A DNA stretch of 64,000 bases from Anaerolineae bacterium (GTDB taxonomy: Bacteria > Chloroflexota > Anaerolineae > Aggregatilineales > UBA3940). The stretch is from assembly GCA_016926985.1 (NCBI GenBank), contig JAFGNO010000093.1:2933-66932 (forward strand), read 5' to 3'. Position 1 is the stretch's first letter; the number at the start of each line of letters is the position of its first letter. Made by a program: the position numbers and the translations under genes. Below are positions 5,752-36,124 of the stretch, piece after piece. A model generated the notes under the pieces. The model made no database searches. It had not been told where the DNA came from and saw nothing but the letters and a program-made list of their open reading frames with translations.

Positions 5752-6393
5752 ATGTCTGATGAACCCCTCCTTCCCCTGGATGAACGCCGGCACCCGGACG
5801 GGCGCCGGAAAATCAATCTGACCCGGACCGAGCGCGCTGAAATCCGGCGGCGGCGCATGATCGAAGCCGCTGTTGCCATGTTCCTCAACCCCTACGAACA
5901 CCTGCGGACGCAGGATATCGCCGCTGAACTGGGGATCTCCACCAAAACGCTGAAGAAGATCACCCAGGATGAAACCTTCATCGAGTTGTATAACGATCAC
6001 TTCCTGGAAGTCTCCCATGACCCGCGCATTCAACTGGTGCGCAGCTCCATCGGTGAAATTGCACCCTTGGCCCTGCAGCGTCTGACCGAGATGGTCGAGA
6101 AGGAAACCACACCCCCGACGGTCCTGCTCAATGCCATCAAACTGATCTTCGAAAAAGCGGGTATTGAACCGGTGAACGTGCGCAGCAGTGACAAGAAGGA
6201 GCTGGTGGACTTTCTCAATGACCGCGGCGTGAACATCCAGCAGATGAACGTGAACATCCACGCCCCCAGCGAATATGAAGAGGTGTATGCAGAAGTCCTG
6301 GAAGGCGTAGTGCGCGAGCCGGCCTCGTTGCTGGCCCCTACGGAAAAAGATGCCGCTGTTTCAGTGACACAAAGTGACGATCCCCTACAATGA
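5752..6393 (+). CDS. HTH DNA-binding protein (putative regulator; TerS-like architecture not excluded)
   Basis: 213 aa. HTH in LRTQDIAAELGISTKTLKKITQ. Divergent from the early operon. Confidence 0.55.
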   Translation: MSDEPLLPLDERRHPDGRRKINLTRTERAEIRRRRMIEAAVAMFLNPYEHLRTQDIAAELGISTKTLKKITQDETFIELYNDHFLEVSHDPRIQLVRSSIGEIAPLALQRLTEMVEKETTPPTVLLNAIKLIFEKAGIEPVNVRSSDKKELVDFLNDRGVNIQQMNVNIHAPSEYEEVYAEVLEGVVREPASLLAPTEKDAAVSVTQSDDPLQ

Positions 6394-6904
6394 TGTGATC
6401 GAGTAATTCGATGTCCATCATTTTGGCAGCTTCATAGAGATGTCTGGTGACAGAAATATCTTCCGGAGAAGGTTCCGGGTCGCCGGAAGGATGATTGTGC
6501 GCCAGCATCATCGCCTGCGCATTGATCAGGATGGCCGGACGCAGCAGTTCAGCGATCCGGACCTGGATGGTGTTCAAGGTGCCGGTATACACTTTCACCC
6601 CGGAGCGCAGCGGTTCATTTCGAGTGCTCAGCGGCAGAACCACCATCTGCTCCTGGAGCGGATTATCAAACAGTTCGAAAATCTTCCGGAACAGCTCGCC
6701 CGCCATGGAAGGGCTTTCCAGCCGGATCTCATGCGAGGTGCTGCGGACCAGCCCAAACGCGGCCACGATCTTCCGGGCTGTTTCCTGGTCCACGACGGTT
6801 GCCAGGGTTTCCTCATCCAGGCTGCGAAGGACCTCCAGGCTGCCAAAGGCTGTGCGCAAATTCTGGGCCGCATAGGGTCCGGTTAATTCTGCGAGATAGT
6901 CCAT
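6338..6904 (-). CDS. radC: RadC-like JAB-domain protein
   Basis: 188 aa from MDYLAELTG. C-terminal MMLAHNHPSGDPEPSPEDI (JAMM motif typical of RadC). Convergent with the HTH gene and overlapping it by 56 nt. Confidence 0.8.
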   Translation of the reverse strand: MDYLAELTGPYAAQNLRTAFGSLEVLRSLDEETLATVVDQETARKIVAAFGLVRSTSHEIRLESPSMAGELFRKIFELFDNPLQEQMVVLPLSTRNEPLRSGVKVYTGTLNTIQVRIAELLRPAILINAQAMMLAHNHPSGDPEPSPEDISVTRHLYEAAKMMDIELLDHIIVGDRHFVSLKQRHLFP

Positions 6905-6922
6905 TTCCTCATCCTTTCGCGC

Positions 6923-6960
6923 AGTGAGGCTGCTTCTGAGAGCAGCCTCACTTTTGTATT
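6923..6960 (+). terminator. stem-loop plus T-tract (rightward terminator or radC leader structure)
   Basis: AGTGAGGCTGC-ttctgaga-GCAGCCTCACT followed by TTTTGTATT. Confidence 0.4.
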
Positions 6961-7030
6961 GAAAAGCCGGAAGGCACCCACCAGGCCCGAACAGAACCGT
7001 TTCACGCGCCAGAAGCCTGCTTCCCATCCC

Positions 7031-7059
7031 TTGGAATAATATTTCCCTATTGATATAAT
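7031..7059 (+). promoter_or_regulatory. promoter (TTGGAA-17-TATAAT with TGA extended -10)
   Basis: TTGGAATAATATTTCCCTATTGATATAAT, about 200 nt upstream of the lipoprotein gene. Confidence 0.5.
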
Positions 7060-7266
7060 TTCACCCTCGTTGGTAGTCGGTTTGTTGGGGTAAACCTTTC
7101 ATCGGTAATTGCTCTTCGTAAATATTTCGTCACCAGTCAGATGCATAGTTCGTGATCCATGGCACAAGGGAGGTGCACATGCCTTGAAGCTCCATATCAT
7201 TCGCTTCCGCATGACCGATAGAAAGAGTTTTCCACCCTTATAGATTAACCTAGAGGAAGAATACCA

Positions 7267-8052
7267 ATGATGAAGAAGTCCCCATTAAAGCTCACCTTAC
7301 CAAAGCATATGGCTTTTCTGACTGTTACCATCTTTGCCCTCTCTATTTTGGCTGCTGGCTGTGGGCCAGCTACCCCGGAGCCAGGGGCAATTGAAACTGC
7401 GATTTTTCTCACACAACAAGCTGAGGAAGGGGCTGATGCGGTTGATGTAATTTCTGAGGAACAGGCTACCAACACGCCCTACCCATCTGCTACCCCGCAA
7501 CCCCCAACGGAGACGCCCTCCCCATCCCCAGAACCTGTAGCGAGTGCTGAGGATCATTGGGCAAAAAACTACGTCGGGACCTACGATAATGGTGATATTG
7601 TCCTGGAAATTGCCCGTATCGTTGTTGGATATAAGGATGCGATCGGCGATCAGGATTGGGACGTCCTGAACGATTACATCGAGGGCTGGGCAGATGTAGA
7701 AGTTGTTGGTGAGCTCGTTTTCAAAGTAACGAATAACTCAGAGAAGACTGTGAGCCTCTATCCTGACCAGGGAACCGTTCAAATAGGCTCAGAACAAATT
7801 CCGCTGGACGAATTCATGTTTTACACAACATTTGGCGATGATGTAGGCGGGGAAATATTCCCTGGCGTGACAAAGATTGGCGGAATGTGGTTCGCTATTG
7901 AGAGATCTGCACCAGATGAGATCACACAGATCATCTATCGAGCCAGTGCACCATTCGATGAAGAAACTTTTAACAACATTGGACCAGATATCGAAATCGT
8001 GATCGATATATCTGAGTATGTATTCGAAGAGTTACCTGAGGAATTGCATTAA
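7267..8052 (+). CDS. lipoprotein (moron)
   Basis: Signal peptide with lipobox: FLTVTIFALSILAAGC. Pro/Thr-rich linker. GC visibly lower than the phage backbone. Confidence 0.7.
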   Translation: MMKKSPLKLTLPKHMAFLTVTIFALSILAAGCGPATPEPGAIETAIFLTQQAEEGADAVDVISEEQATNTPYPSATPQPPTETPSPSPEPVASAEDHWAKNYVGTYDNGDIVLEIARIVVGYKDAIGDQDWDVLNDYIEGWADVEVVGELVFKVTNNSEKTVSLYPDQGTVQIGSEQIPLDEFMFYTTFGDDVGGEIFPGVTKIGGMWFAIERSAPDEITQIIYRASAPFDEETFNNIGPDIEIVIDISEYVFEELPEELH

Positions 8053-8367
8053 TTGCCCGTAGATTTGCATCAGATATAAACTTGCTATCCAAAATACTGT
8101 GTTGTGCTATACTGCAAATTGCATCTAGTAGTGTGAGCGCTCAAGAGATGCACGCTCCCCATCGGCCAGCCCCCCTCTGGTCGAGGGGAGCACCTCTTTT
8201 CTGTAGACCATCATCAAACAATCAACAGCTTCAGATTGGTTGCAAATATTGATGGCTTCATGCTAAGCTTGCTTGTTCCCGGAACATTGGATCTGAAGTG
8301 CCCGGCATAAGCAGGCAGCATGGCTGTACCAGCTATCTGGCTACCAATACACACAGGGGAAAACATC

Positions 8368-9297
8368 ATGCCCATGTTTCAAATCAGCAGCAGCAGTATG
8401 GCGCCGGTTTCGCAGAGCAATTTTCAATCGGAAAAGCAGCTCCAGCACCTGGTGGAAACCAACCTCGAAACGATCTTCAACTGCCGCTTTGTGGCAACTG
8501 AATTTTCAACCGGCGCCCAGCACGCCGGGCGCATTGATACACTGGCGCTTTCCGAAGACAACAACCCGGTGATCATTGAATACAAGAAAATCGAGAGTTC
8601 GGACCTGATCACGCAGAGCCTGTTCTACCTTTCCTGGATCGGCGATCACCGCGGCGATTTTGAAATTGCTGCACAGAAGAAGCTCGGGGCTGACGTGGAG
8701 GTGGACTGGTCCGATGTGCGCGTGCTGTGCATCGCACCGGGATACAAGAAGTATGATCTCCATGCAGTACGGGTGATGGGCGCTAATATTGAACTCTGGC
8801 GCTATCGCCTCTACGACAATCAGACCATCTATTTTGAGGAAATCTTCAAACAGGCTTATCCTGAAAATGACCTGGCAGGAGACAAGGACCCAGCCATGGT
8901 TGCAGCCGGCAAGAAGGGCGCGATCACCAGGGCCACAGCAACCTACACCTTTGAAGAACACCTCGATGGGAAACCGGAGAAAATCCGTTCTCTGGCTCAC
9001 GATGTGCGCGACTATATTCTCGGCCTGGATACAGCGATTGAGCAGAACCCCAGAAAGATGTACATCGGTTACAAGATTTCGCAGAACATCGTTTGCATGG
9101 ATGTTCAGAGCCAGCAAATCCGTTTGTGGCTCAAGCTGAAGCAGTCGGAAGTATCCGATCCTCCCTCCAATTATCGCGATGTGTCAAACCTGGGACATCA
9201 TGGAACCGGGGATGCGGAGTTCATCTTGAGATCGGAAGACGATTTTGAGAGAACGAAACCGTATATTGAAATGGCTTACCGGAAAATCGGCGGCTAG
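8368..9297 (+). CDS. NucS/DUF91-like PD-(D/E)xK nuclease-domain protein (R-M-associated type)
   Basis: MPMFQISS start with AGGGGA RBS. GRIDTLALSEDNNPVIIEYKK (D..ExK). Sits directly upstream of the hsdM fragment. Confidence 0.5.
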   Translation: MPMFQISSSSMAPVSQSNFQSEKQLQHLVETNLETIFNCRFVATEFSTGAQHAGRIDTLALSEDNNPVIIEYKKIESSDLITQSLFYLSWIGDHRGDFEIAAQKKLGADVEVDWSDVRVLCIAPGYKKYDLHAVRVMGANIELWRYRLYDNQTIYFEEIFKQAYPENDLAGDKDPAMVAAGKKGAITRATATYTFEEHLDGKPEKIRSLAHDVRDYILGLDTAIEQNPRKMYIGYKISQNIVCMDVQSQQIRLWLKLKQSEVSDPPSNYRDVSNLGHHGTGDAEFILRSEDDFERTKPYIEMAYRKIGG

Positions 9298-9305
9298 GAG
9301 AGGAT

Positions 9306-9497
9306 ATGCTCAAGGAACAGGAACGCGCGGAACTGCACCGCACCATCTGGCAGATTGCCAACGACCTTCGCGGCAGCGTGGACGGCTGGGATTTCAAGCA
9401 GTATGTGCTGGGCATGCTGTTCTACCGCTTCATCAGCGAAAACCTCACCAGCTACATCAACGAGGACGAACGGCGCAGCGGCAGCAGGGATTTCGAC
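9306..9497 (+). pseudogene. hsdM: Type I R-M methyltransferase HsdM, N-terminal fragment only
   Basis: LHRTIWQIANDLRGSVDGWDFKQYVLGMLFYRFISENLTSYINEDE... is the HsdM N-domain signature. Homology-like sequence stops after ...SRDFD, and composition switches to AT-rich at about 9498. Confidence 0.75.
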
Positions 9498-9672
9498 AGG
9501 AAAATTGAGTTATTTCTATCCGTCAGGTAAGGATCCACGATCACGCTGACAAGGTTAGGAAATTTACAAAACGACTAACAATACCATTTTAGGTAATTAA
9601 ATTCCGACTTTACTAGCGGAGTAAAAAACATTTGAATAATATTACAGTTATCTCCAAACAATCGAGTTGCCA

Positions 9673-11361
9673 ATGTTAAGAATTCCCAATCCAGGATCAG
9701 ATATAAAAAGTTTTATCAACATATATGTGGAACTGTACAATGCCCTTCATCACAGAAAAGACTTCGGTTTGGACGATATCTCATATGTCTTAGTAGAACA
9801 TAACCTTGCAGCATCAAGTGGATATGTGGGAGCCAAAGCTCTTGAGGAATCCTCCAGAGCAGATAGAAGTCGAGATCCTCTATACAACCAATCTAAAATG
9901 TATTCTGAACTATATAAATTGTTGGGGTGGTTACACCCGACAGAAGAAGCTGCTCTGCGATTCAAATTTACATTTTTGGGGTTACATGTAGTTAGGGCAT
10001 ATCCCAATCCAGAACAGATTTTTGAACAATCACTCCTAGGCGTAGTTTATCCAAATCCCATTCTGGATGTCAAAGGAAATCAACATATTAGACCATTTGT
10101 TACAATTTTGAAGGCCTGTAGGGATTTGGATGGGTACATCAGTAGGGACGAAATGATTATTGGCCCCTTATCATTATCGGATGATAGAAATAAGGAAAAG
10201 TATCAGGAAATGATTTCAACCATAAGGGGGATTAGAGGAAAAACTGAAAAACTCCAAAGCGCAATTAATTCTTTGGAAAATTCCCGAAGAATTAAATACA
10301 ACACAATGCAAAATTACACTAGGTTTCCGATCGCCGTCTTGAAGTGGACTAAATGGACTGTTTCCCAGAAAATGAGGATATATGAAAGAACATCAGGATT
10401 TTTAAAAATCACTCAAAAAGGTGAAGAAACGCTAAATCAGCTTGTGAACTTTAAAGATATTAGGTCAAAAGACTTAACTGAATTTCCCACTGATGAACTT
10501 AGAGCTGCTGTAGCACGATTAGCATTTTCACAGATGCTGGAGAGAGCGAATTTTGATGTATCAAGTAATTCTGAAATAATTAGCCAAGACACCCTCCTGA
10601 TTAAATCTAAAATTCCTGGTAGTGCTTTACAATTTCAATTTTCACCGTTCCAAGATATGTCCCAACCCCAGCTTACGAACATCTTTCCTTCTGTTATGGG
10701 AACTCATGATCAAGAATCAACCCAAACGGCTGGGAACAATCCCAATTCAGTAAAGTCAATTTCTTCAATTGTCAGATTGGATCGTGTAGATACAACTACA
10801 AACCTTTATGACGGGATCAAGGATTTGTTTATTTCCGATTCAGATGGTCTATCTGTTGATCAAATAGTGGAACGATTCTATTCATCCCACTCAGGATCAG
10901 ATCTCAATTCTTTTTATCCATTTGTAGAAAAGTTGTTTCGAAGTTTGGGATACGACTGTAGTCTCTCAAGAACCGGAGTAAACTATGAAAGATGGGATGC
11001 AATAATTAAGGACCCCTTACATTCGATACCAATAGAAATTAAATCGCCAAGTGAGGAAGAATCCATTTCATTGAAAGCTATAAGGCAAGCTTTAGAAAAT
11101 AAAATCATTCTATTGTCACGAGAGGCATATCCAACTAAACAAGATACAACTTCTTTAGTTGTTGGTTACAACTTTCCAAATAACCGATCAGAAGCTGTGG
11201 CTTTGATTGAAGCCTTCAAATTTTCGTATGGTTTTTCTATTGGGATAATTGACTTTCGGTCACTATTAACTTTGGTTATAGAAAAAATCCTAAATAAGAA
11301 GCAACACAATATTGAACAAATGAGAACATTGATAGGATTTATAGATGTTAAGACCACTTAG
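9673..11361 (+). CDS. putative restriction endonuclease (C-terminal PD-(D/E)xK-like)
   Basis: 562 aa from ATG 9673 (the ORF track starts at TTG 9667). C-terminal ERWDAIIKDPLHSIPIEIKSPSEEE fits D..ExK. Convergent with two MTase genes. Family not identified. Confidence 0.45.
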   Translation: MLRIPNPGSDIKSFINIYVELYNALHHRKDFGLDDISYVLVEHNLAASSGYVGAKALEESSRADRSRDPLYNQSKMYSELYKLLGWLHPTEEAALRFKFTFLGLHVVRAYPNPEQIFEQSLLGVVYPNPILDVKGNQHIRPFVTILKACRDLDGYISRDEMIIGPLSLSDDRNKEKYQEMISTIRGIRGKTEKLQSAINSLENSRRIKYNTMQNYTRFPIAVLKWTKWTVSQKMRIYERTSGFLKITQKGEETLNQLVNFKDIRSKDLTEFPTDELRAAVARLAFSQMLERANFDVSSNSEIISQDTLLIKSKIPGSALQFQFSPFQDMSQPQLTNIFPSVMGTHDQESTQTAGNNPNSVKSISSIVRLDRVDTTTNLYDGIKDLFISDSDGLSVDQIVERFYSSHSGSDLNSFYPFVEKLFRSLGYDCSLSRTGVNYERWDAIIKDPLHSIPIEIKSPSEEESISLKAIRQALENKIILLSREAYPTKQDTTSLVVGYNFPNNRSEAVALIEAFKFSYGFSIGIIDFRSLLTLVIEKILNKKQHNIEQMRTLIGFIDVKTT

Positions 11362-12412
11362 TCCTAAAAGAAATTATCGGCATGCAATATCCTTCAAGGA
11401 AAACTATAAACCAGCACGAATTGTGTGGAGTGGATTGCAACACCCTGCGACAATTCATTATTCCGATGGCAGCAGAAGTCCGAGTACTTGCATAAGATGT
11501 TTAGATGCACCATGTATGTATTATTCTGAAGATGAAATCCAAATAGGAATTTTTACTGATTTCCCCTACGATAAAAACAATGAAGTATGTCCTACTAAGG
11601 CAATTTCTTGGGAAGAAGACTTCTCTTCACCTCAAATCAACAATGAAAATTGCATCTTTTGCGGTCTATGCATCCAAAGATGTCCAGCAAAAGCAATATT
11701 TTTTTCACAGGAATCAGCAATTGTCATAGATAATCTGAATGATCATTTTGTTGAACTTGGAGAATTTGTAAACGAAAAATCCCTTAGAGAAACAACTCAT
11801 CTATTCCATAACGCTAAAGAAGAAGGAGTCTATTTGCTCGAAAATGATGACGTACTCCAATTATCAAAAACCAAACTAGATCAAATTCTTCCAAGATCAA
11901 ATGCCCAGTTTCCTAATCACTTGTCAAGAAATCTTTTACTTGGATTAGGCGTGGGTGCTATGATGAGACGCTTGGGGGATGTCAATATTCGAATGGACTT
12001 ACTGTTTGGCCCACCAGGTGTAAATCAAGGTACAGGTGAGGTTGAATTTGGAAACGGTGTCTTAGATGCGCCAAGGAATATCTTAGATAATTATGCAACC
12101 TTGGTCACAAAATATAATTCCTCAAGAGATTCGCTCTTCCCTATAGTTATTGTTAATACACTACCAAATTCGCGATCCGATTATTGGTTAGTCATACAGG
12201 ATATACGCAAAGTCCTTGGCATTAAAATACAAACAATGTCAATTGGTCTATTATACATACTGCTTTGGAATAAACTTTCATTATCAATAATCGATGGTAA
12301 TGAATTTTATATTGATGCTGATAATCCATCACTGCGAGAGAAATTGACTACTCACCTACAGAGAGAAAGTAGTATCATTTTTGATCTTGGCTATCTTGAG
12401 AGTGAAAAATAG
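11345..12412 (+). CDS. 4Fe-4S dicluster-domain protein with unknown C-terminal domain (REase partner?)
   Basis: CIRCLDAPC...CP and CIFCGLCIQRCP ferredoxin-type motifs. Overlaps the upstream gene by 17 nt and the MTase 3' end by 38 nt. Confidence 0.6.
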   Translation: MLRPLSPKRNYRHAISFKENYKPARIVWSGLQHPATIHYSDGSRSPSTCIRCLDAPCMYYSEDEIQIGIFTDFPYDKNNEVCPTKAISWEEDFSSPQINNENCIFCGLCIQRCPAKAIFFSQESAIVIDNLNDHFVELGEFVNEKSLRETTHLFHNAKEEGVYLLENDDVLQLSKTKLDQILPRSNAQFPNHLSRNLLLGLGVGAMMRRLGDVNIRMDLLFGPPGVNQGTGEVEFGNGVLDAPRNILDNYATLVTKYNSSRDSLFPIVIVNTLPNSRSDYWLVIQDIRKVLGIKIQTMSIGLLYILLWNKLSLSIIDGNEFYIDADNPSLREKLTTHLQRESSIIFDLGYLESEK

Positions 12413-13187
12413 GCATGCTTACTTTCCACTCATGAATTCGGTCATTCGCAATTTCAATGTACTCCGGATTGATTTCGAAACCCAAATACTTGCGTCCCTC
12501 CATGTAAGCTGCTAAACACTCTGTTCCACTTCCAACAAAAGGGACTACAACAATATCGCCCTCTTTTGAAAAATGTTTAATTATTCTCAAGGAAATTGAA
12601 AGTGGTTTTTGAGTTGGATGATCTACTTTTTCAGCCTGGAATCTTTTTCCAGCCAGTACAGGGAACTTCCAGACATCCCCTGCTAGTCTCCCCTCTGGAT
12701 GTGGATGCCATACTTTTCCATTTTTCGTGACTTTATACTTCAACCTATCTTGGCTTTTATAAGGTTCCCTAATAGGGAAATAAGTATAGTTACTCCCTTT
12801 AGAAAACCATAATATTGGTTCATAATGAGCAGCTAATGTCCTTTTCGAATACCCAGCAAATCCATTTTCATAGAACCATATGATCTGTCTACGATAATCA
12901 AGCTTAATTTCAGACATGTAACAATGCAGCCAACACAAATGGTGATGGATACCATATACAAATATATTTCCCCCAGGTTTCAAGATCCGTTTTGCTTCAT
13001 CCAACCAACTTTTACTCCATGATAGCCAAGTATCTTTGTGGTCCTTTTCTTTATAGATACCAAAATCTTTCCCAATATTATAAGGGGGGTCTGCTATAAT
13101 TAAATCAGCAAATTCGTCCGGCAAAGCCTTCATTCCTTCAATACAATCCAGATTATGGATGATGTTTAAATCATTGGTTTTTTTCAT
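12375..13187 (-). CDS. DNA methyltransferase, N4/N6 family (beta-type order: DPPY first)
   Basis: IIADPPYNIG (motif IV), HPTQKP, VPFVGSGTE (motif I). Confidence 0.88.
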   Translation of the reverse strand: MKKTNDLNIIHNLDCIEGMKALPDEFADLIIADPPYNIGKDFGIYKEKDHKDTWLSWSKSWLDEAKRILKPGGNIFVYGIHHHLCWLHCYMSEIKLDYRRQIIWFYENGFAGYSKRTLAAHYEPILWFSKGSNYTYFPIREPYKSQDRLKYKVTKNGKVWHPHPEGRLAGDVWKFPVLAGKRFQAEKVDHPTQKPLSISLRIIKHFSKEGDIVVVPFVGSGTECLAAYMEGRKYLGFEINPEYIEIANDRIHEWKVSMPIFHSQDSQDQK

Positions 13188-14067
13188 TATTATTCTGCAC
13201 TATTAGAATATATTGGTGGTGAATATTAGGAACATATGCATAGGGATAACCATAAGGAAAAACTCGCTTATGGCGTTGATAGAGTATCGTGATCCCTTTT
13301 AGCTCAAACCCTCGACTTTCTAATTGCATCGCTAAATCAGCATGAAACATGTAATACTTCGATTTATGACGGAAATCGCTTACTATGACGGCCATATACT
13401 TTTCTGGTTTTAGAACACGAATAGTGTCACCAAGAATTGCCGATAAATTTCTTAAGAATTCCTGATAATCTTCAATATTTCCTAAATCTCTTTCATCATT
13501 ACTATATCTGGTGTCCAATCCATTTGCTATGCGTTCTTGTCTTACTTTATGATCTTCCTTATGAAGAATGTTCCAGTAAGGCGGACTTGTAACTACAAAA
13601 TCGACAGTATTTTCCTCTACGGTATCCAACAAATCCCTTGCATCGCCAACGTAAATTTCCTGTTGATACTGAGAGGGGAACATTGGGGCAATTTCATTAC
13701 TTAATCTTTCCTTGGCTAACTCTGCATAATGTGGATTTAATTCAAAACCAATCCCACGCCGATTATTTATCGCACATGCCTTTAATGTTGAGCCTACCCC
13801 GACAAAGGGGTCAAGAACTAATTGTCCCTCCTTGGTAAAGAATTTAATTAATCGACCGACATCAGTAAACGAAAAAGGGGCAGGATGTTGTTTTTCAATT
13901 TTGGTATCTGGATGCTTTGCGCCTAACCCCTTTTGGTTCCATACAGAAATTGTTTCAACTATCCATTCTTTTGAAGGCAGGTCATTAAGCTTGTTTCGGG
14001 GATCAACTCCAGGCGATGGATCCTCAAAAGCGCTTTCTTGCTGATCGTGATTCTCAATTACTTCCAT
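13171..14067 (-). CDS. DNA methyltransferase, N4/N6 family (SPPY type, motif I before motif IV)
   Basis: QHPAPF, LDPFVGVGST (motif I), VVTSPPYWN (motif IV). Confidence 0.88.
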   Translation of the reverse strand: MEVIENHDQQESAFEDPSPGVDPRNKLNDLPSKEWIVETISVWNQKGLGAKHPDTKIEKQHPAPFSFTDVGRLIKFFTKEGQLVLDPFVGVGSTLKACAINNRRGIGFELNPHYAELAKERLSNEIAPMFPSQYQQEIYVGDARDLLDTVEENTVDFVVTSPPYWNILHKEDHKVRQERIANGLDTRYSNDERDLGNIEDYQEFLRNLSAILGDTIRVLKPEKYMAVIVSDFRHKSKYYMFHADLAMQLESRGFELKGITILYQRHKRVFPYGYPYAYVPNIHHQYILIVQNNNEKNQ

Positions 14068-14281
14068 AATTTTCCAGAACCTCCAGGAGTTTATCCAACT
14101 CCCGCTTTTGATATAATCGATAGTTATTCAGCGGATGCCTGTATGAATTCAATTTCCCAGACTTATCCCAATTTCGAAGTGTAGACGAAGAGACACCTAA
14201 GTATTTAGCAGCTTCACTCACAGTTAGATATTCATTAAATTTTTTAATTCGCTGAGGCATGACACTGAACCGTAAGATCAT
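14054..14281 (-). CDS. MerR/excisionase-type HTH protein (possible R-M controller)
   Basis: LTVSEAAKYLGVSSSTLRNWDKSGKL. Overlaps the MTase start by 14 nt. Alternative start at 14260. Confidence 0.65.
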   Translation of the reverse strand: MILRFSVMPQRIKKFNEYLTVSEAAKYLGVSSSTLRNWDKSGKLNSYRHPLNNYRLYQKRELDKLLEVLENYGSN

Positions 14282-15468: not shown

Positions 15469-15663
15469 TCACCTCACCCTGTCAATGATAGCCTTCACCA
15501 CGCCACAAAGCACCGGAAGCAGAAACGCAGCCAACCAGATCCATTTCGCCCTGTCCAGGTTTTCTTTCGAAAAGAACACATATATCTCCGGATCGGTCTC
15601 CACAGTCAGGTCATCCATCATCGTCCAGCCTTCTTCCCCCCAGTCATCCCAGTCATCCCCCAT
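15469..15663 (-). CDS. small membrane protein
   Basis: 64 aa. Acidic N-terminus (MGDDWDDWGEEGW). C-terminal TM WIWLAAFLLPVLCGVV. Overlaps the upstream gene by 11 nt. Confidence 0.5.
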   Translation of the reverse strand: MGDDWDDWGEEGWTMMDDLTVETDPEIYVFFSKENLDRAKWIWLAAFLLPVLCGVVKAIIDRVR

Positions 15664-16018
15664 GCGCGTCCTCCGGTTTGGTGTGTTTGATCGAGAAGGT
15701 CATGCAGCCGAGCGGCTTCCCGTCCTCCCCACGCACCATACGCCCAGGACTGATGAGGTCCTCCCTGTCCGACGCATCCATCGTCATCTTCGATACGATA
15801 TACAGGGTCTCCGGCGCAGGGTCCGGCAGATTGATCACATCCCCATAGATCGACCGCACCAGCGGTACCAGCGTTTGTCCTACCGTCAGCTTGCCCACAG
15901 ATACATCCATCTGATCCACCCTGGCGACCACGCCGGTTGGTGCAAATGTCCGCACGATTTCGCCGTCTGACGATACAACCGTAATTTCATGGGGTGTCAG
16001 ATTGATCATTTTTATCAT
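15653..16018 (-). CDS. hypothetical protein
   Basis: 121 aa from MIKMINLTPHEITVV. GGGAGA RBS 6 nt upstream. GC-rich, backbone-like composition. Confidence 0.55.
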   Translation of the reverse strand: MIKMINLTPHEITVVSSDGEIVRTFAPTGVVARVDQMDVSVGKLTVGQTLVPLVRSIYGDVINLPDPAPETLYIVSKMTMDASDREDLISPGRMVRGEDGKPLGCMTFSIKHTKPEDAHGG

Positions 16019-16388
16019 TGGGTTTCTCCCTGATATCAGTTTATGGCTGAACAGCCAACTGCAAAAATTGGGTACTATTCTTTTCATGTAGCACCTTTAC
16101 AGTGAAAAGGTTCAAAATGGTAGACCTCATTTCAATAGGGCGTCTATCGTAGAAAAAATAATCCGCACAGATTTTGGATAGTTAAGAGGAGAAAGTCACG
16201 GCAGCGCTTGCCAAAGCAGCACCTGCCCGTATACAACAAGAAACATGGATGAGCTGGATAAGCAGGGTGATATTGTGAATCCACACCGCAATTCGGGTTC
16301 TAAATCCCCTGATGAAACACTGTTGGATGGGAATAGGCAGCCGATACTATAGGCGTAATCTTATCGAAAATGAAGTTGTCAGTCTCAT

Positions 16389-17669
16389 TTATTCCTGAGT
16401 TACATTACCATCTTCAGAAACCCATAGAAAGCTAAAATTGGCAGCTATTTTGAACCATTGAATCTCCTGCTTCAATCTGTGATAAGTAGGGAAGTCGGGG
16501 AGAGCTACAAAGAGGACCGCTCTACTGTTTTCCTGACGATATCGTATCATGTCATACACTGCAGCCTTAAACCAGTGTCGTGCTTGGGGAGCTAACCTGG
16601 TTCTGACAGTTCCTTTTGGGTAACCCTTCACGGTCACCCAGGCGTTTTGCTCATCAAACACTGCTTCTATATCTTTTCCTCTTTGTCGTGATCTGGTATC
16701 GGCTACTGACCGGATGGTGTATTCATTCAAGACCAGATACTCGACGATGCGAGACTGGATATTACCTTCCCAGAACCACGGTTCTTTTTCAGAATCGCAT
16801 GAATAATTGGCCGTCTCAATTTTCGTTGTATCTCCGATCCAAAAATTAAGAATTTTTCCCTCTCTCTTTTCGCGCTTAACTAATCCTTCTTTAGCTAGAT
16901 CACGACAGATTGAATTTGCTTGCTGTCGAAAGTTAAACCCCAGGTTTAAGGCAAGTTGATCATCATCAAGTCCACCTGAATGGGATTGGAGATGCTCAAT
17001 TACTCGCTCTCGTTGTTTCATCATCAGCTCCTTATCTACAGATTCGGTTGTGATTTTTCCGTTCTCATCTATCCACTTGAAGCAAACGAAGGGTATGTTA
17101 AGAAAGGCTCTTCTCAATAATGAATACCTGCGCCACGCTTCGCAATCAGGTAATGCAATAAAACCAACAGGAGATGAGTGAGAGAGAAAAGAATTGTTAT
17201 ATAAGTCGGAGATGCAATCGAATATTTCAACTACTTCAAACATACTATCAATCTGACATCCATGCTTTTCATTCGATGAATCTAGGTTATCCACCCTAAA
17301 CCCACGGTTTAGTTTACAGCCAACCACAAAGACTTCAAAATAAGGTATTCTTGAAGAACCAACAATCATACGGTATATTGGAAAACTGGCAGGTTGCCAA
17401 AAATCAGTTACCTGGTATCCGTTTTCCAAGAAAGAGAGCCTTAGTCTATTACGCAAACCTCCGACAGAATACCATAGGGGATTATGCAGATCCCCACTCC
17501 AATAGTACCTGATTCCAGAACTGTGAACCTCATGATGAATGTACTCTGGGTCTAATTTTTCAATATACATCCTCGCAGCCACTGAGGATATATTGAATTC
17601 CTCAGCAATTTGATCTGCATCAAATCCGCCATATATATTCTGTATGCGATTTTTAATTTTTTCTAACAT
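16389..17669 (-). CDS. two-wHTH protein with C-terminal PD-(D/E)xK-like nuclease domain
   Basis: 426 aa, AT-rich. DADQIAEEFNISSVAARMYIEKL and DDDQLALNLGF..ICRDLAKEGLVKRE (wHTH). C-terminal RQRGKDIEAVFDEQNAWVTVKGYP (D.E...K). Confidence 0.5.
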   Translation of the reverse strand: MLEKIKNRIQNIYGGFDADQIAEEFNISSVAARMYIEKLDPEYIHHEVHSSGIRYYWSGDLHNPLWYSVGGLRNRLRLSFLENGYQVTDFWQPASFPIYRMIVGSSRIPYFEVFVVGCKLNRGFRVDNLDSSNEKHGCQIDSMFEVVEIFDCISDLYNNSFLSHSSPVGFIALPDCEAWRRYSLLRRAFLNIPFVCFKWIDENGKITTESVDKELMMKQRERVIEHLQSHSGGLDDDQLALNLGFNFRQQANSICRDLAKEGLVKREKREGKILNFWIGDTTKIETANYSCDSEKEPWFWEGNIQSRIVEYLVLNEYTIRSVADTRSRQRGKDIEAVFDEQNAWVTVKGYPKGTVRTRLAPQARHWFKAAVYDMIRYRQENSRAVLFVALPDFPTYHRLKQEIQWFKIAANFSFLWVSEDGNVTQE

Positions 17670-29992: not shown

Positions 29993-30067
29993 GACGGGGG
30001 ATCTAATGTTGGGTTCCCCCTAAACCTTTATGGAGCACATAAAGTCCAGCTAGTTCGGGTTGCCTCA

Positions 30068-30139
30068 CCTGGCTATAACGGGCCGGATGAAGTGACGCTT
30101 ATGGAGATGGGGGAGGATGTGCCTGGGGAGGGGTGAGGA
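30068..30139 (+). repeat. 72-bp direct repeat, copy 2 (orphan FmdB 3' end)
   Basis: Encodes ...PGYNGPDEVTLMEMGEDVPGEG-stop with no zinc-ribbon part upstream. Confidence 0.95.
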
Positions 30140-30223
30140 AACTGGGAGGCCAAGGTTTCCAGCGGCAATAGATTATGCCTATCGTAACCATCCGAATTGC
30201 CTTGCTGCATTAGTCTTTACCGT

Positions 30224-31798
30224 CTAATATCTTGCATTTGTAATTCTGGATAATGCTTTGTAGAAATCTTCCTCATCAATCATCAAGTTGGTAGTATCAA
30301 TTTCTTCAATTTGTAGCAACGCAGAATTAAGATCAAAGCTTCTGCGAATGCAATTATATGCGCCTTCACGAGCAACGAAGGCGATATCGGCACCAGTAAG
30401 GCCAAGTAATTGATTGCTTAATTCCTCAATATGGATATTCGGTGAAAGAGGCATTCCTGATATGCACTTAGAAAAGATATCAAAGCAGCCCTTCTTGGTA
30501 GGTTTCTTTACCTCGATATGGTAATCAAACCTCCCTGGTCTCACCAATGCTTGGTCTAGTAACTCTGGACGATTGGTTGAGCCCAATACTCGAATATTCC
30601 CATAATTCTCAAGACCGTCCATTAATGATAGCAATTGATTAACAAAACGCGAATCTAATCTAAGGTTTTCTTCACCTGATCGTTGTTGAGCAATGGAATC
30701 AATTTCATCAAAGAATATTATTGCTGGTTCCAATTCTTGAGCCTCTTCAAAAATCATACGAAGATTTTTCTCAGATTGCCCATGATACTTATTGAGTAGT
30801 TCAGGGCCTTTCACACCGATAAAGTGTGCATTAATTTCATTTGCAATTGCTTTGGCAATCATAGTTTTGCCACACCCTGGAGGACCATAAAGCAATATCC
30901 CTTTATGAGGGATAATTTTCATGTATTCAAACAGGTTTGGCTGCTTCAACGGTAATTCAATTACTTCTCTAATTGTCCCGATGATCTCATCTAAACCACC
31001 GATATCCTCAAATGATACCTCTGGAATATCCCGTTTCCTCTTTTCGCGCAGCTCTGTTTCAAATGAAATTCTTCCAAATGAAATTTGTTGTGATCCATTG
31101 TCCACTTCTTCCTTTTTCGGTTGAATTCCTGTAATTTTCTCTTCAATTGTGTAGCCATCGTCAATTTCTTGTCGCTTCAGCTCAAATTGCTCATCGGTAT
31201 TCGGATCGATTTCATTCGGCAACTTAGACAAGATTATGTCTATATTATCTACATCAAAATACGGGCAAAATGAGAGTAACTTTGATCCTGCTTCATCAAC
31301 TAGGATTTCCTTAATCTTCTCTTTATCGATTTGCCATTTCTCGTTGCTGAAACTGCCAAAGTCGTACCAAATCCTTCCATTGTACTGACGATAACCCCAA
31401 GAATTCGTGGGATGATGATATCTATTTATGGACACTAGATGTCTACATTGCCAGCCTTCCTTAATATCTTGATCAATGTAACAATACTTTGCTCCTAAGT
31501 AGTTCATCCCAGATGCACAGGACATAGTATTTTTTAAGTTCCGTATTTGATCTGACGAGGCAGTATTTCCATTTATGAGAATTTCCGTTCCTTTCCAATT
31601 TTGGATCATTTCATAGATAATTTGGAATATTTGATAATGCTCGACGAATTGGGTGCTATCAAATTCAATTGAATTTGTCTTTGAGCTTTCAGTAAAAGTG
31701 TATGTATCAAATTTCTTACACATCCTAATAACTTTTGGATAATTTTGTGAACTTGATTTTGAAAACCTAAGTGTAACTAGAAAATCTGATTTATCCAT
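30224..31798 (-). CDS. classical-clade AAA+ ATPase (CDC48/FtsH-like module) with an unknown ~260-aa N-terminal domain
   Basis: [20 protein letters not shown] (Walker A), [12 protein letters not shown] (Walker B), [20 protein letters not shown] (SRH / Arg fingers). Confidence 0.88.
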
Positions 31799-32096
31799 TT
31801 TCAGAACCTCGGAACCTAAGTAAGTTAAATAACTTTAGCTGAGACGCACGAGCTCATCAACTCAAGTTTTTCAGATTGACACTTTAGCTCAATCAACTGT
31901 CAACCGCTGCAGATCCTCAACTACAATCTGAAAACATCATAGAGACGAGACTAATTGTATAGGTGCCGGAATTATTGCCAAACTCAGTTTCAGCAACAGG
32001 AATTCGACCCAATTTTTTAACCATCTCCTAAGTAACTCGTGCGGTCTGATCCTGATAGCCTTCTACCTAACTATAGGCAACGTTAGAGGAGCCTTT

Positions 32097-33065
32097 TCAA
32101 ATATTTAATAAAGGTTTTTCAAAAAACCATAACGGACTCGATGGGACTTCATAATCTGAAATGTCCTCATGAAGAAACCAGGTAAGCAGCTCTCTTAATG
32201 CCTCCATCGCGTTCTTAGTAGATGGATAGTCATTCTCCGCATTATGAGCCAGATCATTTCTACTCTTTCTTGCCTTGTGAAGTCTATCTGCCAAATCCTC
32301 AGAGAAAATACCCGCCGTAAGTAATATTTCTGTCTGAATAGCAGCTGTGTAAGTTCTAGTATCCTTTAATCGATTTAACCGGTTCTTATTTTCAATTTCA
32401 TCACGATACTTCCTCCATTCATGAGCAATAAGTTGTTCACATGCAATCCAAGAATTAAGGAGGGAAGTGTCAAGATGATATCTTGAGAACGATGAATAAG
32501 CAGTAACGATGAACGCAGGCAAGCTTAAAGAAACGGATTCGAGTTTGGTTGCAAGATCTAAATTAGCGACTTTATAAATGATCTCAATACTGGAATTTAA
32601 GGAGGTCCACATAAGTTCGTCTTCTTCATTTTTGCGACTTGAATCAAATGGCGCTAGATTATAGCTAGGCTTGAAAGACACTGAGGGGTAGAGGATAGAA
32701 ACATGACCATTATGTATTTCGCCAACACAAAGGCGAGATGGAGTAGCAGCCTCAGAAATCAATCCGTTTAGTGTCAACTCACAGATTAGACGATTCAGTA
32801 GTCTGCAGGAGTTATGTTCAAAATCGAGTTGCAAGTTCAGATAATCTAAATTTAGATGTCCCAAATCATTCTCCCTTCGACCTAATAGATCATCGGGGAT
32901 AGGAAGGAATAATCCTCCCATTGCTGTGATGTGGATTCGATAATCGGAGTTAACTGCAACTGTTCTAATAATTTTGTGAGCGCTTTTTGGGTTTTCAAGA
33001 TTGACTTCAGTTAAAAATGTGAGTGGATCGAGATAAGTTCCGATGAAATATTTCGCTTGGTTCAC
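32097..33065 (-). CDS. HEPN-domain protein (Abi-like), unknown N-terminal domain
   Basis: C-terminal helical region with LHKARKSRNDLAHN (Rx4H HEPN motif). Confidence 0.55.
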   Translation of the reverse strand: MNQAKYFIGTYLDPLTFLTEVNLENPKSAHKIIRTVAVNSDYRIHITAMGGLFLPIPDDLLGRRENDLGHLNLDYLNLQLDFEHNSCRLLNRLICELTLNGLISEAATPSRLCVGEIHNGHVSILYPSVSFKPSYNLAPFDSSRKNEEDELMWTSLNSSIEIIYKVANLDLATKLESVSLSLPAFIVTAYSSFSRYHLDTSLLNSWIACEQLIAHEWRKYRDEIENKNRLNRLKDTRTYTAAIQTEILLTAGIFSEDLADRLHKARKSRNDLAHNAENDYPSTKNAMEALRELLTWFLHEDISDYEVPSSPLWFFEKPLLNI

Positions 33066-33258
33066 GCTGTCACTCCGATTTACAAACTCATAAATATAAC
33101 CTAACAGTTATAGTTACTGGCATGCCTGGTACTTGCTGAAAAGATACAAGATAACGATCTCATAATTGATATTGAAACCTGAAACCCCAATAGTCAAAGC
33201 ATCGTCGAGACAATTCCTTGGTATGTTGTTATGCGAAAGTTGATTGTTCACCCAGCCA

Positions 33259-33417
33259 TTATTTTGGCTTGCTTGGCCTAGGTTTCGGTTTTTCGGGCGG
33301 TGGGGCTGGGACCCGTTGACCTTTTATTGCGTCATTGCCACTACCGATTTTTTTATCAGGAGTACCGGTTTTCTTTTCCTCCAGAAATATTGCATTTGGT
33401 TTCCTTCTGAGTAACAT
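33259..33417 (-). CDS. 52-aa Lys/Pro-rich peptide (candidate)
   Basis: TAGGAG RBS overlapping the upstream stop. MLLRRKPNAIFLEEKKTGTPDKK...PPPEKPKPRPSKPK. Confidence 0.35.
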   Translation of the reverse strand: MLLRRKPNAIFLEEKKTGTPDKKIGSGNDAIKGQRVPAPPPEKPKPRPSKPK

Positions 33418-33425
33418 TTTTACTC

Positions 33426-33827
33426 CTAAAGGTTTGAGTGTGTAAAAATTGCAGCGAAAATTACGCCCACTACAAATAAAATACCGCCTAATGCATTCAA
33501 AATGCCTGTGAGAATATCCTGCCATCCACCAGGATGATTATCATAAATTTTTTCTATATCAACTTGCTTAATCGCCTTCCTCAATGCCCAATTGCTGGAG
33601 TAGAAGGATAATAAAACAATAGAAATGCTTATAGCCCATAAAATCCAAGCCACTAAGATGTAATTGGGATTGACTACTGAATTGCTGCCAATAATGTCTT
33701 TTATAAATGCAAAGGTAATTCCTAACGCGCCACCCGATAACGCGATAAGGTTTTTATCGTAATCATCCTGAGCTTTTTGCTCTGCAGTCATCAAGTTTGT
33801 CCTATATTTTTCGAGTAAATCAGACAT
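33426..33827 (-). CDS. three-TM membrane protein
   Basis: 133 aa from MSDLLEKYRT (AGAGGA RBS). TM segments LIALSGGALGITFAFI, ILVAWILWAISISIVLLSFY, ILNALGGILFVVGVIFAAIF. Confidence 0.6.
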   Translation of the reverse strand: MSDLLEKYRTNLMTAEQKAQDDYDKNLIALSGGALGITFAFIKDIIGSNSVVNPNYILVAWILWAISISIVLLSFYSSNWALRKAIKQVDIEKIYDNHPGGWQDILTGILNALGGILFVVGVIFAAIFTHSNL

Positions 33828-34199
33828 TTTTTTCCTCTTGCTCGATTGGATTATCAAAAAAATCCTCCCCTTTTTAGGGAGTCTATAGCACACGAACACT
33901 TCGTCAAGATTTTAATAACCTTCGCCAAGGCAACAGAAACTGCGAGTAGAACGAGGTCCCTCAAGCTTACCTTCACTAATATGGAATCAAATTTGTCTTC
34001 CTGAATTATTCCGGAATTCAACTCATAAAGTAGCCGTTAAGCGATCAGCCCCTTCGAACTAAAGCGCTGTTATTCGTCCCAAATCCTGCTTTCTAAATAA
34101 AGAGATAGTCTCCCACCAGACAAATCGTTGCATTTCCTCGACCGATTCCAGAGTGAAGTTAGCCGGAGATGAGACGACCCAAACAAAGATCTGTGGTGA

Positions 34200-35977: not shown

Positions 35978-36124
35978 TGCATCCTACCTTTCTAATCCCT
36001 AGGAAAAATCTGTCCAAAATAATAAGTAATTAATAAAGTCAACTTTTTTATGAGGGTCCGTAAAAATTATCTACTCTACCGAATATTGTTCTATTTCGAC
36101 TAACAAGATTGATTATTGGTTTCT

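What the first reader, a model, noticed from the sequence alone, without database searches (positions are those of the whole stretch)
11345..12412. Ferredoxin-type 2x[4Fe-4S] domain fused to an unknown domain, translationally linked to the putative REase
Seen: CIRCLDAPC...CP plus CIFCGLCIQRCP at the N-terminus. About 230 further residues have no motif I recognise. The start overlaps the upstream gene by 17 nt.

Established knowledge: Fe-S clusters occur in some DNA enzymes (AddB, Cas4, EndoIII, DinG) but are not a standard R-M component.

Inference: this may be a redox- or cluster-dependent nuclease subunit or sensor, and possibly a new R-M accessory class.
Basis: partly seen in the sequence, partly recalled or inferred. 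Interest (0 to 1): 0.55.

Follow-up and report, generated by a model that had tools for sequence, protein, structure and literature searches.

The report
Iron-sulfur subunit of a restriction enzyme
This gene encodes the small, second-strand-cutting subunit of a two-subunit FokI/BspD6I-like restriction enzyme, and it unexpectedly carries a conserved double iron-sulfur (ferredoxin) domain that I could not find reported for any Type II restriction enzyme.

Summary
ORF 11345-12412 (+) encodes 355 aa with eight invariant Cys in two ferredoxin motifs, and it overlaps the upstream gene by 17 nt.

The ~230 "unknown" residues are a FokI/BspD6I-type PD-(D/E)xK cleavage domain. It is paralogous to the C-terminal domain of the upstream 562-aa protein (hhalign 95%, E 1.8e-8). 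That upstream protein's model matches only Nt.BspD6I and FokI in PDB (E 1e-9 to 1e-7).

Together with two PF01555 MTases (DPPY and SPPY types) and an HTH regulator, this forms a heterodimeric Type IIS/IIT R-M system of the BstNBI/BspD6I kind. The large subunit recognises DNA and cleaves one strand; the small subunit cleaves the other.

Co-occurrence is complete: 20/20 genomic and 69/69 metagenomic loci carry large subunit, small subunit and MTases. The Fe-S form is the norm (114 of 148 representatives). One separate clade, which includes a Clostridium phage, has a ~200-aa cysteine-free small subunit like ss.BspD6I.

The protein is therefore an integral catalytic subunit, not an accessory. What the clusters do is untested. 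Both R subunits lack any family in Pfam, NCBIfam, PADLOC and PHROGs, and I found no literature on Fe-S Type II restriction enzymes. Verdict: new variant of a known kind.

The parts
9673..11361 (+). Large R subunit (562 aa from ATG 9673; ORF opens at TTG 9667). N-terminal DNA-recognition region of about 340 aa, a disordered linker, and a C-terminal cleavage domain.
   Evidence: No sequence family. AF2 model pLDDT 85. Foldseek PDB: the top 10 hits are only Nt.BspD6I (E 9e-10) and FokI (E 3.6e-8), then a gap to E 0.1. At least 1497 homologous clusters, all named 'hypothetical'.
10996..11043 (+). Catalytic motif of the large subunit: D444 ... E457-I-K459 (564-aa numbering), canonical PD-ExK.
   Evidence: Invariant in 28 homologues. 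Aligned with the small-subunit motif.
11334..11337 (+). AGGA Shine-Dalgarno-like motif, 7 nt upstream of the small-subunit ATG and inside the end of the large-subunit gene.
   Evidence: Read from the sequence. Supports translational coupling (inference).
11345..12412 (+). Small R subunit, 355 aa: N-terminal beta region plus 2x[4Fe-4S] ferredoxin domain plus FokI-like cleavage domain.
   Evidence: AF2 pLDDT 91.6, pTM 0.91. Foldseek hits to a ferredoxin subunit, FokI and N.BspD6I.
11345..11740 (+). Fe-S module (residues ~1-132). Cys motif 1 at 11489-11515 (C49, C52, C57) plus C82-P83 at 11588-11593. Cys motif 2 at 11651-11686 (C103, C106, C109, C113-P114).
   Evidence: Eight invariant Cys. Pfam Fer4 and Fer4_7 above cut-off. 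Short-form small subunits begin where this module ends. Column identity 0.64, the same as the catalytic core.
11741..12409 (+). Cleavage domain of the small subunit (residues ~133-355). Catalytic motif D218 ... E232-V-E234 at 11996-12046. Conserved tail ending in invariant K355.
   Evidence: hhalign to the large-subunit C-terminal domain: 95.4%, E 1.8e-8. Motif register. 355 representatives in the exhaustive search.
12375..13187 (-). DNA MTase, 270 aa, beta-class PF01555 with DPPY motif (probably N6-adenine). Convergent with the small subunit; the 3' ends overlap by 38 nt.
   Evidence: Pfam 2.5e-52. PADLOC MTase_II. Closest solved structure M.MboIIA 1g60, E 8e-39. Present in all related loci.
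13171..14067 (-). DNA MTase, 298 aa, permuted PF01555 with SPPY motif (probably N4-cytosine; inference).
   Evidence: Pfam 8.3e-28. Closest PDB matches are 2zie and N4-cytosine MTases 8s9n/8s9m. Present in all related loci.
14054..14281 (-). 75-aa MerR/HTH_17 regulator at the head of the MTase operon; putative controller protein.
   Evidence: Pfam MerR 6e-12, HTH_17 1.5e-11. Homologues occupy the same position in many loci. The phage copy has an HTH regulator there too.

Best explanation

The large subunit recognises an asymmetric site through a FokI-like N-terminal domain. It cuts one strand with a canonical D...ExK cleavage domain. The small subunit has no recognition domain. It brings a paralogous cleavage domain (D...ExE, a BamHI-like variant) that cuts the other strand once it docks on the DNA-bound large subunit.

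Two MTases, one DPPY and one SPPY, each protect one strand, and a small HTH protein controls the operon.

The new element is the N-terminal ~130 residues of the small subunit. They form a bacterial-type ferredoxin domain predicted to hold two [4Fe-4S] clusters, packed rigidly on the cleavage domain. My preferred reading, which is inference, is that this is a structural, non-redox module. It would occupy the place that the recognition domain takes in the large subunit, and it would stabilise, position or restrain the second cleavage domain. Comparable non-redox uses are the dicluster domain of ABCE1/RLI and the Fe-S 'staples' of AddB, Cas4 and Dna2.

Shown here: domain identities, paralogy, fold, gene linkage and conservation. 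Inferred: heterodimer formation, strand assignment, cluster binding and the role of the clusters.
For: - Fold of the large subunit: only Nt.BspD6I and FokI match (E 9e-10 to 8e-8, probability 1.00, ~600-650 aligned columns), then nothing below E 0.1.
- Small-subunit model (pLDDT 91.6, pTM 0.91): matches a ferredoxin subunit, then FokI and N.BspD6I.
- Paralogy of the two cleavage domains: hhalign 95.4%, E 1.8e-8 over ~160 residues. Shared G(D)N..R.D, ExK/ExE and PN.R(S/T)(E/D) motifs.
- Linkage: 20/20 genomic loci across many phyla and 69/69 metagenomic loci have large subunit, small subunit and both MTases. The window genes overlap by 17 nt and have an SD-like motif.
- A separate clade has a ~200-aa cysteine-free small subunit that begins where the Fe-S module ends. 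This matches ss.BspD6I (186 aa) next to Nt.BspD6I (604 aa), as described in PMC3017599 and PMC4081073.
- Type IIT enzymes are generally accompanied by two MTases (PMC4081073).
- Eight invariant Cys. The Fe-S domain is as conserved as the catalytic core, 0.64 against 0.65.
- The Fe-S form occurs in loci from Brevibacterium and Idiomarina as well as from Clostridia and Selenomonas. Brevibacterium and Idiomarina are aerobes by my own knowledge. This fits a buried structural cluster better than an O2-labile sensor.
Against: - No sequence-level similarity to BspD6I or FokI, even with profiles. The relationship rests on predicted folds and architecture.
- The small subunit has E in place of the catalytic K. 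Activity is assumed from the BamHI precedent and from conservation, not shown.
- The recognition sequence, cleavage positions, heterodimer formation and cluster binding are all untested.
- The Fe-S domain is near-neutral to acidic (core pI about 4.8), so a direct DNA-binding role has no support from charge.
- A short-form clade exists, so the Fe-S module is dispensable for the basic architecture. That leaves a regulatory role open.
Confidence: 0.75

Rival explanations
1. Redox, oxygen or iron gate. The architecture is the same, but the two [4Fe-4S] clusters act as a sensor. Only with intact (or reduced) clusters does the small subunit complete the double-strand break. Otherwise the enzyme only nicks. 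Restriction strength would then follow the cell's redox or iron state.
For: The Fe-S domain is as constrained as the active site and all eight ligands are invariant. It is dispensable for the basic architecture because a short-form clade exists, which is what one expects of a regulatory add-on. Large subunits of Class III enzymes are nickases on their own (PMC3017599), so a nick/cut switch is mechanistically available. The ferredoxin core is acidic like electron carriers.
Against: There is no partner reductase or redox gene in any of the conserved modules. The Fe-S form is found in both aerobes and anaerobes (physiology from my own knowledge). pTM 0.91 suggests a rigidly packed domain. No experimental data exist.
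Confidence: 0.2
2. The small subunit is a catalytically dead partner, because ExE replaces ExK. It only regulates or stabilises the large subunit, and the system is a nicking R-M system.
For: The Lys of the ExK motif is replaced by Glu in every small subunit examined, long or short.
Against: D/E218, E232 and E234 are at least 90% conserved across the family, which is unexpected for a dead site. BamHI uses E-x-E (established knowledge). The review notes that D/E or K residues can be recruited from elsewhere, citing BspD6I (PMC4081073). An invariant C-terminal Lys is present.
Confidence: 0.1
3. An independent ferredoxin-like redox protein, or a loosely associated R-M accessory, that is not part of the endonuclease itself.
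For: The public annotation is '4Fe-4S binding protein' or 'ferredoxin'. The only family hits are ferredoxin domains.
Against: The C-terminal two thirds is a nuclease paralogous to the neighbouring gene's cleavage domain. Linkage is complete at 89/89 loci. No homologue was found in a metabolic context.
Confidence: 0.03

Closest known systems
R.BspD6I / R.BstNBI (Nt.BspD6I 604 aa + ss.BspD6I 186 aa; GAGTC 4/6), Class III heterodimeric Type IIS/IIT
   Same: The large subunit combines a FokI-like recognition domain with a cleavage domain. The small subunit is encoded by the adjacent downstream ORF and carries a paralogous cleavage domain. Strand-specific MTase activities protect an asymmetric site. 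The best structural match of the large subunit is Nt.BspD6I. The short-form clade's ~200-aa small subunit is directly comparable to ss.BspD6I.
   Different: No detectable sequence similarity. The small subunit here carries an extra ~130-residue 2x[4Fe-4S] ferredoxin domain and an ExE rather than ExK motif. The recognition sequence is unknown.
FokI (Type IIS, homodimerising cleavage domain)
   Same: Same order of a multi-wHTH recognition domain followed by a C-terminal PD-(D/E)xK cleavage domain. Structural hits for both subunits.
   Different: FokI uses two copies of one protein. Here the second cleavage domain is a dedicated, divergent gene product with an Fe-S domain.
BtsI / BsrDI (Class III heterodimers)
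   Same: Large plus small subunit, one catalytic site each; the small subunit is inactive alone (PMC3017599).
   Different: In those enzymes the catalytic sites are of two unrelated types (PD-ExK and PD-Xn-E-X12-QR), and the large subunit's site is N-terminal (my own knowledge of PMC1950550). Here the two sites are paralogous and C-terminal.
Fe-S nucleases of the PD-(D/E)xK superfamily (AddB, Cas4, Dna2, Exo5)
   Same: A [4Fe-4S] cluster is attached to a restriction-endonuclease-fold nuclease, generally in a structural role (established knowledge).
   Different: Those enzymes have one cluster held by four Cys that flank the nuclease domain (an 'iron staple'). Here a separate, classical two-cluster bacterial ferredoxin domain lies N-terminal to the nuclease.
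ABCE1/RLI N-terminal dicluster ferredoxin domain
   Same: A 2x[4Fe-4S] ferredoxin-type domain at the N-terminus of a non-redox nucleic-acid-machinery protein. It appears among the NCBIfam and PDB hits.
   Different: The partner domain is unrelated (ABC ATPase) and so is the function (ribosome recycling).
BamHI active site (D94, E111, E113)
   Same: Glu replaces the Lys of the (D/E)xK motif (my own knowledge), as in D218...E232-x-E234 here.
   Different: BamHI is a homodimeric Type IIP enzyme and is not otherwise related.

Membership tests
Class III heterodimeric Type IIS/IIT REase (BstNBI/BspD6I type) | Large subunit with a FokI-like DNA-recognition domain followed by a PD-(D/E)xK cleavage domain | tested here: met
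   Foldseek: only Nt.BspD6I and FokI match, over ~600 columns. Invariant D...ExK motif. This rests on a predicted structure (pLDDT 85, pTM 0.60).
Class III heterodimeric Type IIS/IIT REase (BstNBI/BspD6I type) | Small subunit encoded by the adjacent ORF, with a catalytic domain homologous to that of the large subunit | tested here: met
   hhalign 95.4%, E 1.8e-8; alignment; adjacency in 89/89 loci.
Class III heterodimeric Type IIS/IIT REase (BstNBI/BspD6I type) | Two strand-specific MTase activities accompany the enzyme | tested here: met
   Two PF01555 MTases in the window and in all related loci; DPPY and SPPY motifs.
Class III heterodimeric Type IIS/IIT REase (BstNBI/BspD6I type) | Sequence homology to BspD6I/BstNBI/PleI/MlyI | tested here: not met
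   phmmer and profile searches of PDB, which holds 2ewf and 1fok, find nothing. It is therefore a distinct sequence family with the same architecture.
Class III heterodimeric Type IIS/IIT REase (BstNBI/BspD6I type) | Asymmetric recognition site; large subunit nicks alone; heterodimer makes the double-strand cut | not testable with these tools
   Needs biochemistry or methylome data.
Bacterial-type 2x[4Fe-4S] ferredoxin domain (Pfam Fer4 / Fer4_7) | Two Cys motifs providing eight ligands, each ending in C-P | tested here: met
   C49, C52, C57 ... C82-P and C103, C106, C109, C113-P, all invariant. Motif 1 is the CxxCx4C variant, with a 24-residue insert before its C-P.
Bacterial-type 2x[4Fe-4S] ferredoxin domain (Pfam Fer4 / Fer4_7) | Score above the Pfam gathering threshold | tested here: met
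   PF00037 33.1 bits against 21.1; PF12838 33.1 bits against 27.
Bacterial-type 2x[4Fe-4S] ferredoxin domain (Pfam Fer4 / Fer4_7) | Actually binds two [4Fe-4S] clusters | not testable with these tools
   Needs anaerobic purification, UV-vis/EPR and Fe/S analysis.
Iron-staple Fe-S nucleases (AddB/Cas4/Dna2) | Four Cys flanking the nuclease domain that hold one cluster | tested here: not met
   All conserved Cys lie in the N-terminal ferredoxin domain, and none is conserved in the nuclease domain.
Known PADLOC defence systems / PDC candidates | Match to a PADLOC v2.0.0 model | tested here: not met
   There are no hits for either R subunit; only the MTases match.

The most novel reading that the evidence does not exclude
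The two [4Fe-4S] clusters are a working switch. Their redox or assembly state decides whether the small subunit completes the double-strand break, so the enzyme toggles between a site-specific nickase and a true restriction endonuclease according to oxidative or iron status. This would be the first metabolically gated Type II restriction enzyme, and it would come with a ready-made ferredoxin-controlled nick/cut module for engineering.
Probability: 0.2. Interest if true: 0.85.

Novelty: new variant of a known kind. Interest (0 to 1): 0.62.

Why it matters
Type II restriction enzymes have been studied in great depth, yet a 2014 comprehensive review never mentions iron, Fe-S or ferredoxin. My literature searches found no Fe-S restriction or nicking endonuclease.

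This family is widespread. There are at least 355 representatives at 50% identity for the small subunit and at least 1497 clusters for the large subunit. It spans many bacterial phyla, an archaeon and a phage. In the family the dicluster ferredoxin domain is the rule and is as conserved as the active site.

It raises a clear, testable question: why would a hydrolytic DNA-cutting subunit need two iron-sulfur clusters? The family contains natural controls, namely the short-form clade without the domain and L016, where both cleavage domains carry one.

In practical terms:
- It defines two unannotated protein families, now labelled 'hypothetical' and '4Fe-4S binding protein', that should be annotated as R subunits.
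- It may yield new Type IIS specificities and natural nickases.
- Members may have been missed in activity screens if the clusters are lost during aerobic purification (speculation).

Tried and rejected
- Family libraries: Pfam, NCBIfam, PADLOC and PHROGs give nothing for the large subunit or for the small subunit's C-terminal domain.
- Sequence searches of PDB with single proteins and with three profiles (A1, A2, A3) return only ferredoxins or noise, with no FokI or BspD6I.
- 'Rare family' idea: the first homologue search returned only 26 clusters. That was a word-index sensitivity artefact. Locus sampling and the exhaustive search show hundreds.
- DNA-binding by charge: the Fe-S domain is not basic (net charge about -1, core pI 4.8), so this argument was dropped.
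- Plasmid carriage: no match in PLSDB. There is one phage record.
- The Payne et al. 2024 preprint mentions a PDC with a '4Fe-4S' gene embedded in Type I R-M systems. Its text does not identify that candidate, and neither R subunit matches any PADLOC PDC model, so it could not be equated with this module.
- Recognition sequence: not inferable. MTase similarity to M.MboIIA, CcrM and 2zie is generic, and a 64-kb window is too small for site-avoidance statistics, so that analysis was not attempted.
- I could not inspect model coordinates, so the distance from the clusters to the active site and the position of the C-terminal Lys remain unknown.
Full report
**1. Observation**

ORF 11345-12412 (+) encodes 355 aa. 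It carries C49-x2-C52-x4-C57 ... C82-P83 and C103-x2-C106-x2-C109-x3-C113-P114.

Pfam Fer4 and Fer4_7 score above their gathering thresholds at residues 80-118. NCBIfam and PDB sequence searches return only ferredoxin-type domains such as NuoI, RnfB, polyferredoxins and ABCE1/RLI.

All eight Cys are invariant in 24 homologues down to 27% identity. By the usual ferredoxin wiring, which is established knowledge, C49/52/57 plus C113 would hold one [4Fe-4S] cluster and C103/106/109 plus C82 the other.

The ATG at 11345 lies 17 nt inside the upstream gene, whose TAG ends at 11361. An AGGA precedes it by 7 nt.

The gene sits in a 36-40% GC island (about 9.5-17.7 kb) within a ~58% GC genome. The identical protein is in nr as '4Fe-4S binding protein [Anaerolineae bacterium]'.

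**2. What the 'unknown' 230 residues are**

An AlphaFold2 model built on the family alignment is very confident (pLDDT 91.6, pTM 0.91). Foldseek against PDB gives a ferredoxin subunit (WOR5-B) for the N-terminal part. It then gives FokI (1fok, 2fok) and the nickase N.BspD6I (2ewf, 5liq, 6qnz), with probabilities 0.8-0.97. Against viral models it hits only generic restriction endonuclease and PD-(D/E)XK proteins.

Independently, a profile-profile comparison shows that residues ~151-316 are homologous to residues ~385-547 of the upstream protein (hhalign 95.4%, E 1.8e-8).

A joint alignment of long small subunits, short small subunits and large-subunit C-termini is clean.
- Large subunits have R-W-D444 ... 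E457-(I/V)-K459, invariant in 28 sequences (564-aa numbering).
- Small subunits have R-(M/F)-D218 ... E232-x-E234.
- Both share G(D)N..R.D, a conserved helix (LDAPRN / KAVRQA) and PN.R(S/T)(E/D).

The C-terminal domain is therefore a PD-(D/E)xK cleavage domain with a BamHI-like E-for-K variant. The BamHI comparison is from my own knowledge.

**3. The partner and the system**

The upstream protein is 562 aa from ATG 9673. It has no sequence family. Its model (pLDDT 85) matches only Nt.BspD6I (E 9e-10 to 6e-8) and FokI (E 4e-8 to 8e-8) over ~600-650 columns, and the next hit is at E 0.1. So it has the architecture of a Type IIS enzyme: recognition domain plus cleavage domain.

Downstream and convergent are two PF01555 MTases.
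- The 270-aa MTase has DPPY. Its closest solved relative is M.MboIIA, a Type IIS adenine MTase (E 8e-39).
- The 298-aa MTase is permuted and has SPPY. Its closest matches are 2zie and N4-cytosine MTases.

A 75-aa MerR/HTH_17 protein heads the MTase operon.

This is the make-up of a Type IIT / Class III Type IIS system as described for BstNBI/BspD6I. That system has a 604-aa large subunit that recognises DNA and nicks, a 186-aa small subunit from the adjacent ORF with a paralogous catalytic domain that is active only in the complex, and generally two MTases (PMC3017599; PMC4081073).

**4. Comparative evidence**

All 20 genomic loci that encode a relative of the Fe-S protein carry a large-subunit homologue immediately upstream and both MTases. 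The hosts are Anaerolineae, Poribacteria, Flavobacteriaceae, Elusimicrobiota, Clostridia, Selenomonas, Gastranaerophilales, Brevibacterium, Idiomarina, Eggerthellaceae, Acidimicrobiales, Woesearchaeota and Veillonella.

Starting from the large subunit instead, 69 of 80 metagenomic loci have enough downstream DNA to judge. All 69 have the ferredoxin domain and the nuclease domain next to it, and 66 match both strict Cys motifs. The MTase pair is downstream in 58 and upstream in 10.

An exhaustive HMMER search with the nuclease domain alone finds 355 representatives at 50% identity, 256 of them at E<=1e-10. Of the 148 retrieved, 114 are full Fe-S forms with a median of 349 aa, 11 are N-truncated Fe-S forms, and 23 lack the Cys (short forms or fragments). 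The large subunit has at least 1497 clusters. The apparent rarity (26 clusters) was a search artefact.

**5. Natural variants that inform function**

(a) Five loci have a 192-214-aa cysteine-free small subunit that starts where the Fe-S module ends and keeps the D...ExE motif. They are Aliidiomarina, a Woesearchaeote, a Lachnospiraceae MAG, Veillonella parvula and Clostridium phage CWou-2020b. Their large subunits form one separate clade, 52-78% identical to each other and at most 39% identical to the others. One gain or loss of the module therefore separates two lineages, and the module is not required for the basic architecture.

(b) In one Acidimicrobiales MAG (L016) the recognition domain is followed by a TAG and then a 306-aa ORF. 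That ORF has its own eight-Cys ferredoxin domain fused to a large-type (E-V-K) cleavage domain. The normal Fe-S small subunit follows. This arrangement is unique in my sample (0 of 93 and 0 of 120 large subunits) and could be a nonsense mutation. It shows the ferredoxin module associating with the cleavage domain as such.

(c) One locus (L159) has the third Cys of motif 2 replaced by Arg.

(d) Within the family the ferredoxin domain is as conserved as the nuclease core (column identity 0.64 against 0.65).

**6. Mechanism**

Shown: domain content, paralogy, predicted folds, strict gene linkage and conservation.

Inferred: the large subunit binds an asymmetric site and cuts one strand; the small subunit docks through its cleavage domain and cuts the other; the MTases modify one strand each, probably as m6A and m4C.

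The role of the clusters is open. I favour a structural or positioning role. The reasons are a rigidly packed domain (pTM 0.91), no redox partner gene in any module, and presence in both aerobes and anaerobes. A redox or iron gate on second-strand cleavage is a serious alternative (about 0.2), because large subunits of this class are nickases on their own.

The domain is not basic, so I have no evidence for direct DNA binding.

An invariant C-terminal Lys in a conserved tail, found only in small subunits, might supply the missing positive charge of the ExE site. This is speculation, prompted by the review's remark that K or D/E can be recruited from elsewhere in BspD6I.

**7. Comparison with the known, and novelty**

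The system works like BstNBI/BspD6I and meets that class's architectural criteria. It shows no sequence similarity to it even with profiles, so it is a separate family of the same kind.

Fe-S clusters are known in PD-(D/E)xK nucleases such as AddB, Cas4 and Dna2, but as a single four-Cys 'staple' around the nuclease domain (my own knowledge). Here no conserved Cys lies in the nuclease domain, and the module is a classical dicluster ferredoxin domain, as at the N-terminus of ABCE1/RLI.

I found no report of an Fe-S domain in a Type II restriction or nicking enzyme.
- The 2014 review has zero occurrences of iron, Fe-S or ferredoxin.
- A 2025 R-M review cites Fe-S only for DndC.
- Other searches gave nothing relevant.
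- PADLOC's candidate systems do not include it.

REBASE could not be consulted, so a prediction or an unpublished characterisation there cannot be excluded.

Verdict: a real feature, and a new variant of a known kind. Interest 0.62.

Noticed in passing
window 9306-9530 (+): A 74-aa ORF is the N-terminal fragment of a Type I hsdM (Pfam HsdM_N, 1.4e-12). The similarity stops near 9495, exactly where GC content drops. The low-GC island carrying the R-M module therefore appears to have truncated a Type I methylase gene. No remainder of hsdM was found to the right of the island.
   Followed up: partly
window 8320-9297 (+): A 325-aa protein matches PADLOC candidate defence family PDC-S18 (2.6e-108) and DUF5655. 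It lies just upstream of the hsdM fragment.
   Followed up: no
window 15653-16087 (-) and 16389-17669 (-): Within the same low-GC island, a 144-aa protein matches PADLOC 'Unk_01, small protein sometimes fused to CARF' (3.6e-19). Next to it is a 426-aa protein with only a weak CARF-like hit (6e-4). This may be another defence gene pair.
   Followed up: no
window ~30000-37000 (second low-GC island, 38-39% GC): It holds further defence-like genes: an IetA-like AAA+ ATPase (30224-31798, PADLOC 1e-39) and an AAA_21 (AbiLi/AriA-like) ATPase (34847-35977). The latter overlaps a weak DUF4276 match (34200-34850; 21.6 bits, below Pfam's 30.2-bit cut-off). Several neighbouring ORFs have no family.
   Followed up: partly
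L016 7945-10948 (Acidimicrobiales MAG CBDBZP010000005.1): Three-ORF version of the endonuclease. A recognition-domain ORF is followed by a TAG. Next comes a 306-aa ORF with its own eight-Cys ferredoxin domain fused to a large-type (E-V-K) cleavage domain. The usual Fe-S small subunit follows. It is unique among about 213 large subunits checked, and it is unknown whether this is a real split or a nonsense mutation.
   Followed up: partly
window 12380-12409 (residues ~346-355 of the small subunit) and the equivalent positions in L001-L020 and L161: Small subunits, both long and short forms, end in a conserved tail G-x-(L/F)-(E/x)-(S/P)-x-K, and the final Lys is invariant in the 24-sequence alignment. 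Large subunits lack the tail. It might compensate for the Lys-to-Glu change in the ExE motif (speculation).
   Followed up: no
L161 (Clostridium phage CWou-2020b, CP063968.1, record 6714-11285): A circular 52-kb phage or phage-plasmid of C. botulinum carries the short-form version of the whole module: HTH, two MTases, a 563-aa protein and a 214-aa protein. PGAP annotates both R genes as 'hypothetical protein'. An IS3 transposase pseudogene and GIY-YIG and HNH nuclease genes lie next to it.
   Followed up: partly
window 6338-7027 (-): A RadC-like JAB domain protein (Pfam 7.3e-33) lies in the flank of the island. Such proteins are common on mobile elements (my own knowledge).
   Followed up: no
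L159 (metagenome contig Ga0067045_1032099), small-subunit ORF: The second ferredoxin motif reads C-x2-C-x2-R-x3-C-P, so the third Cys is replaced by Arg. This is a natural variant that could hold a [3Fe-4S] cluster or have lost one cluster.
   Followed up: no
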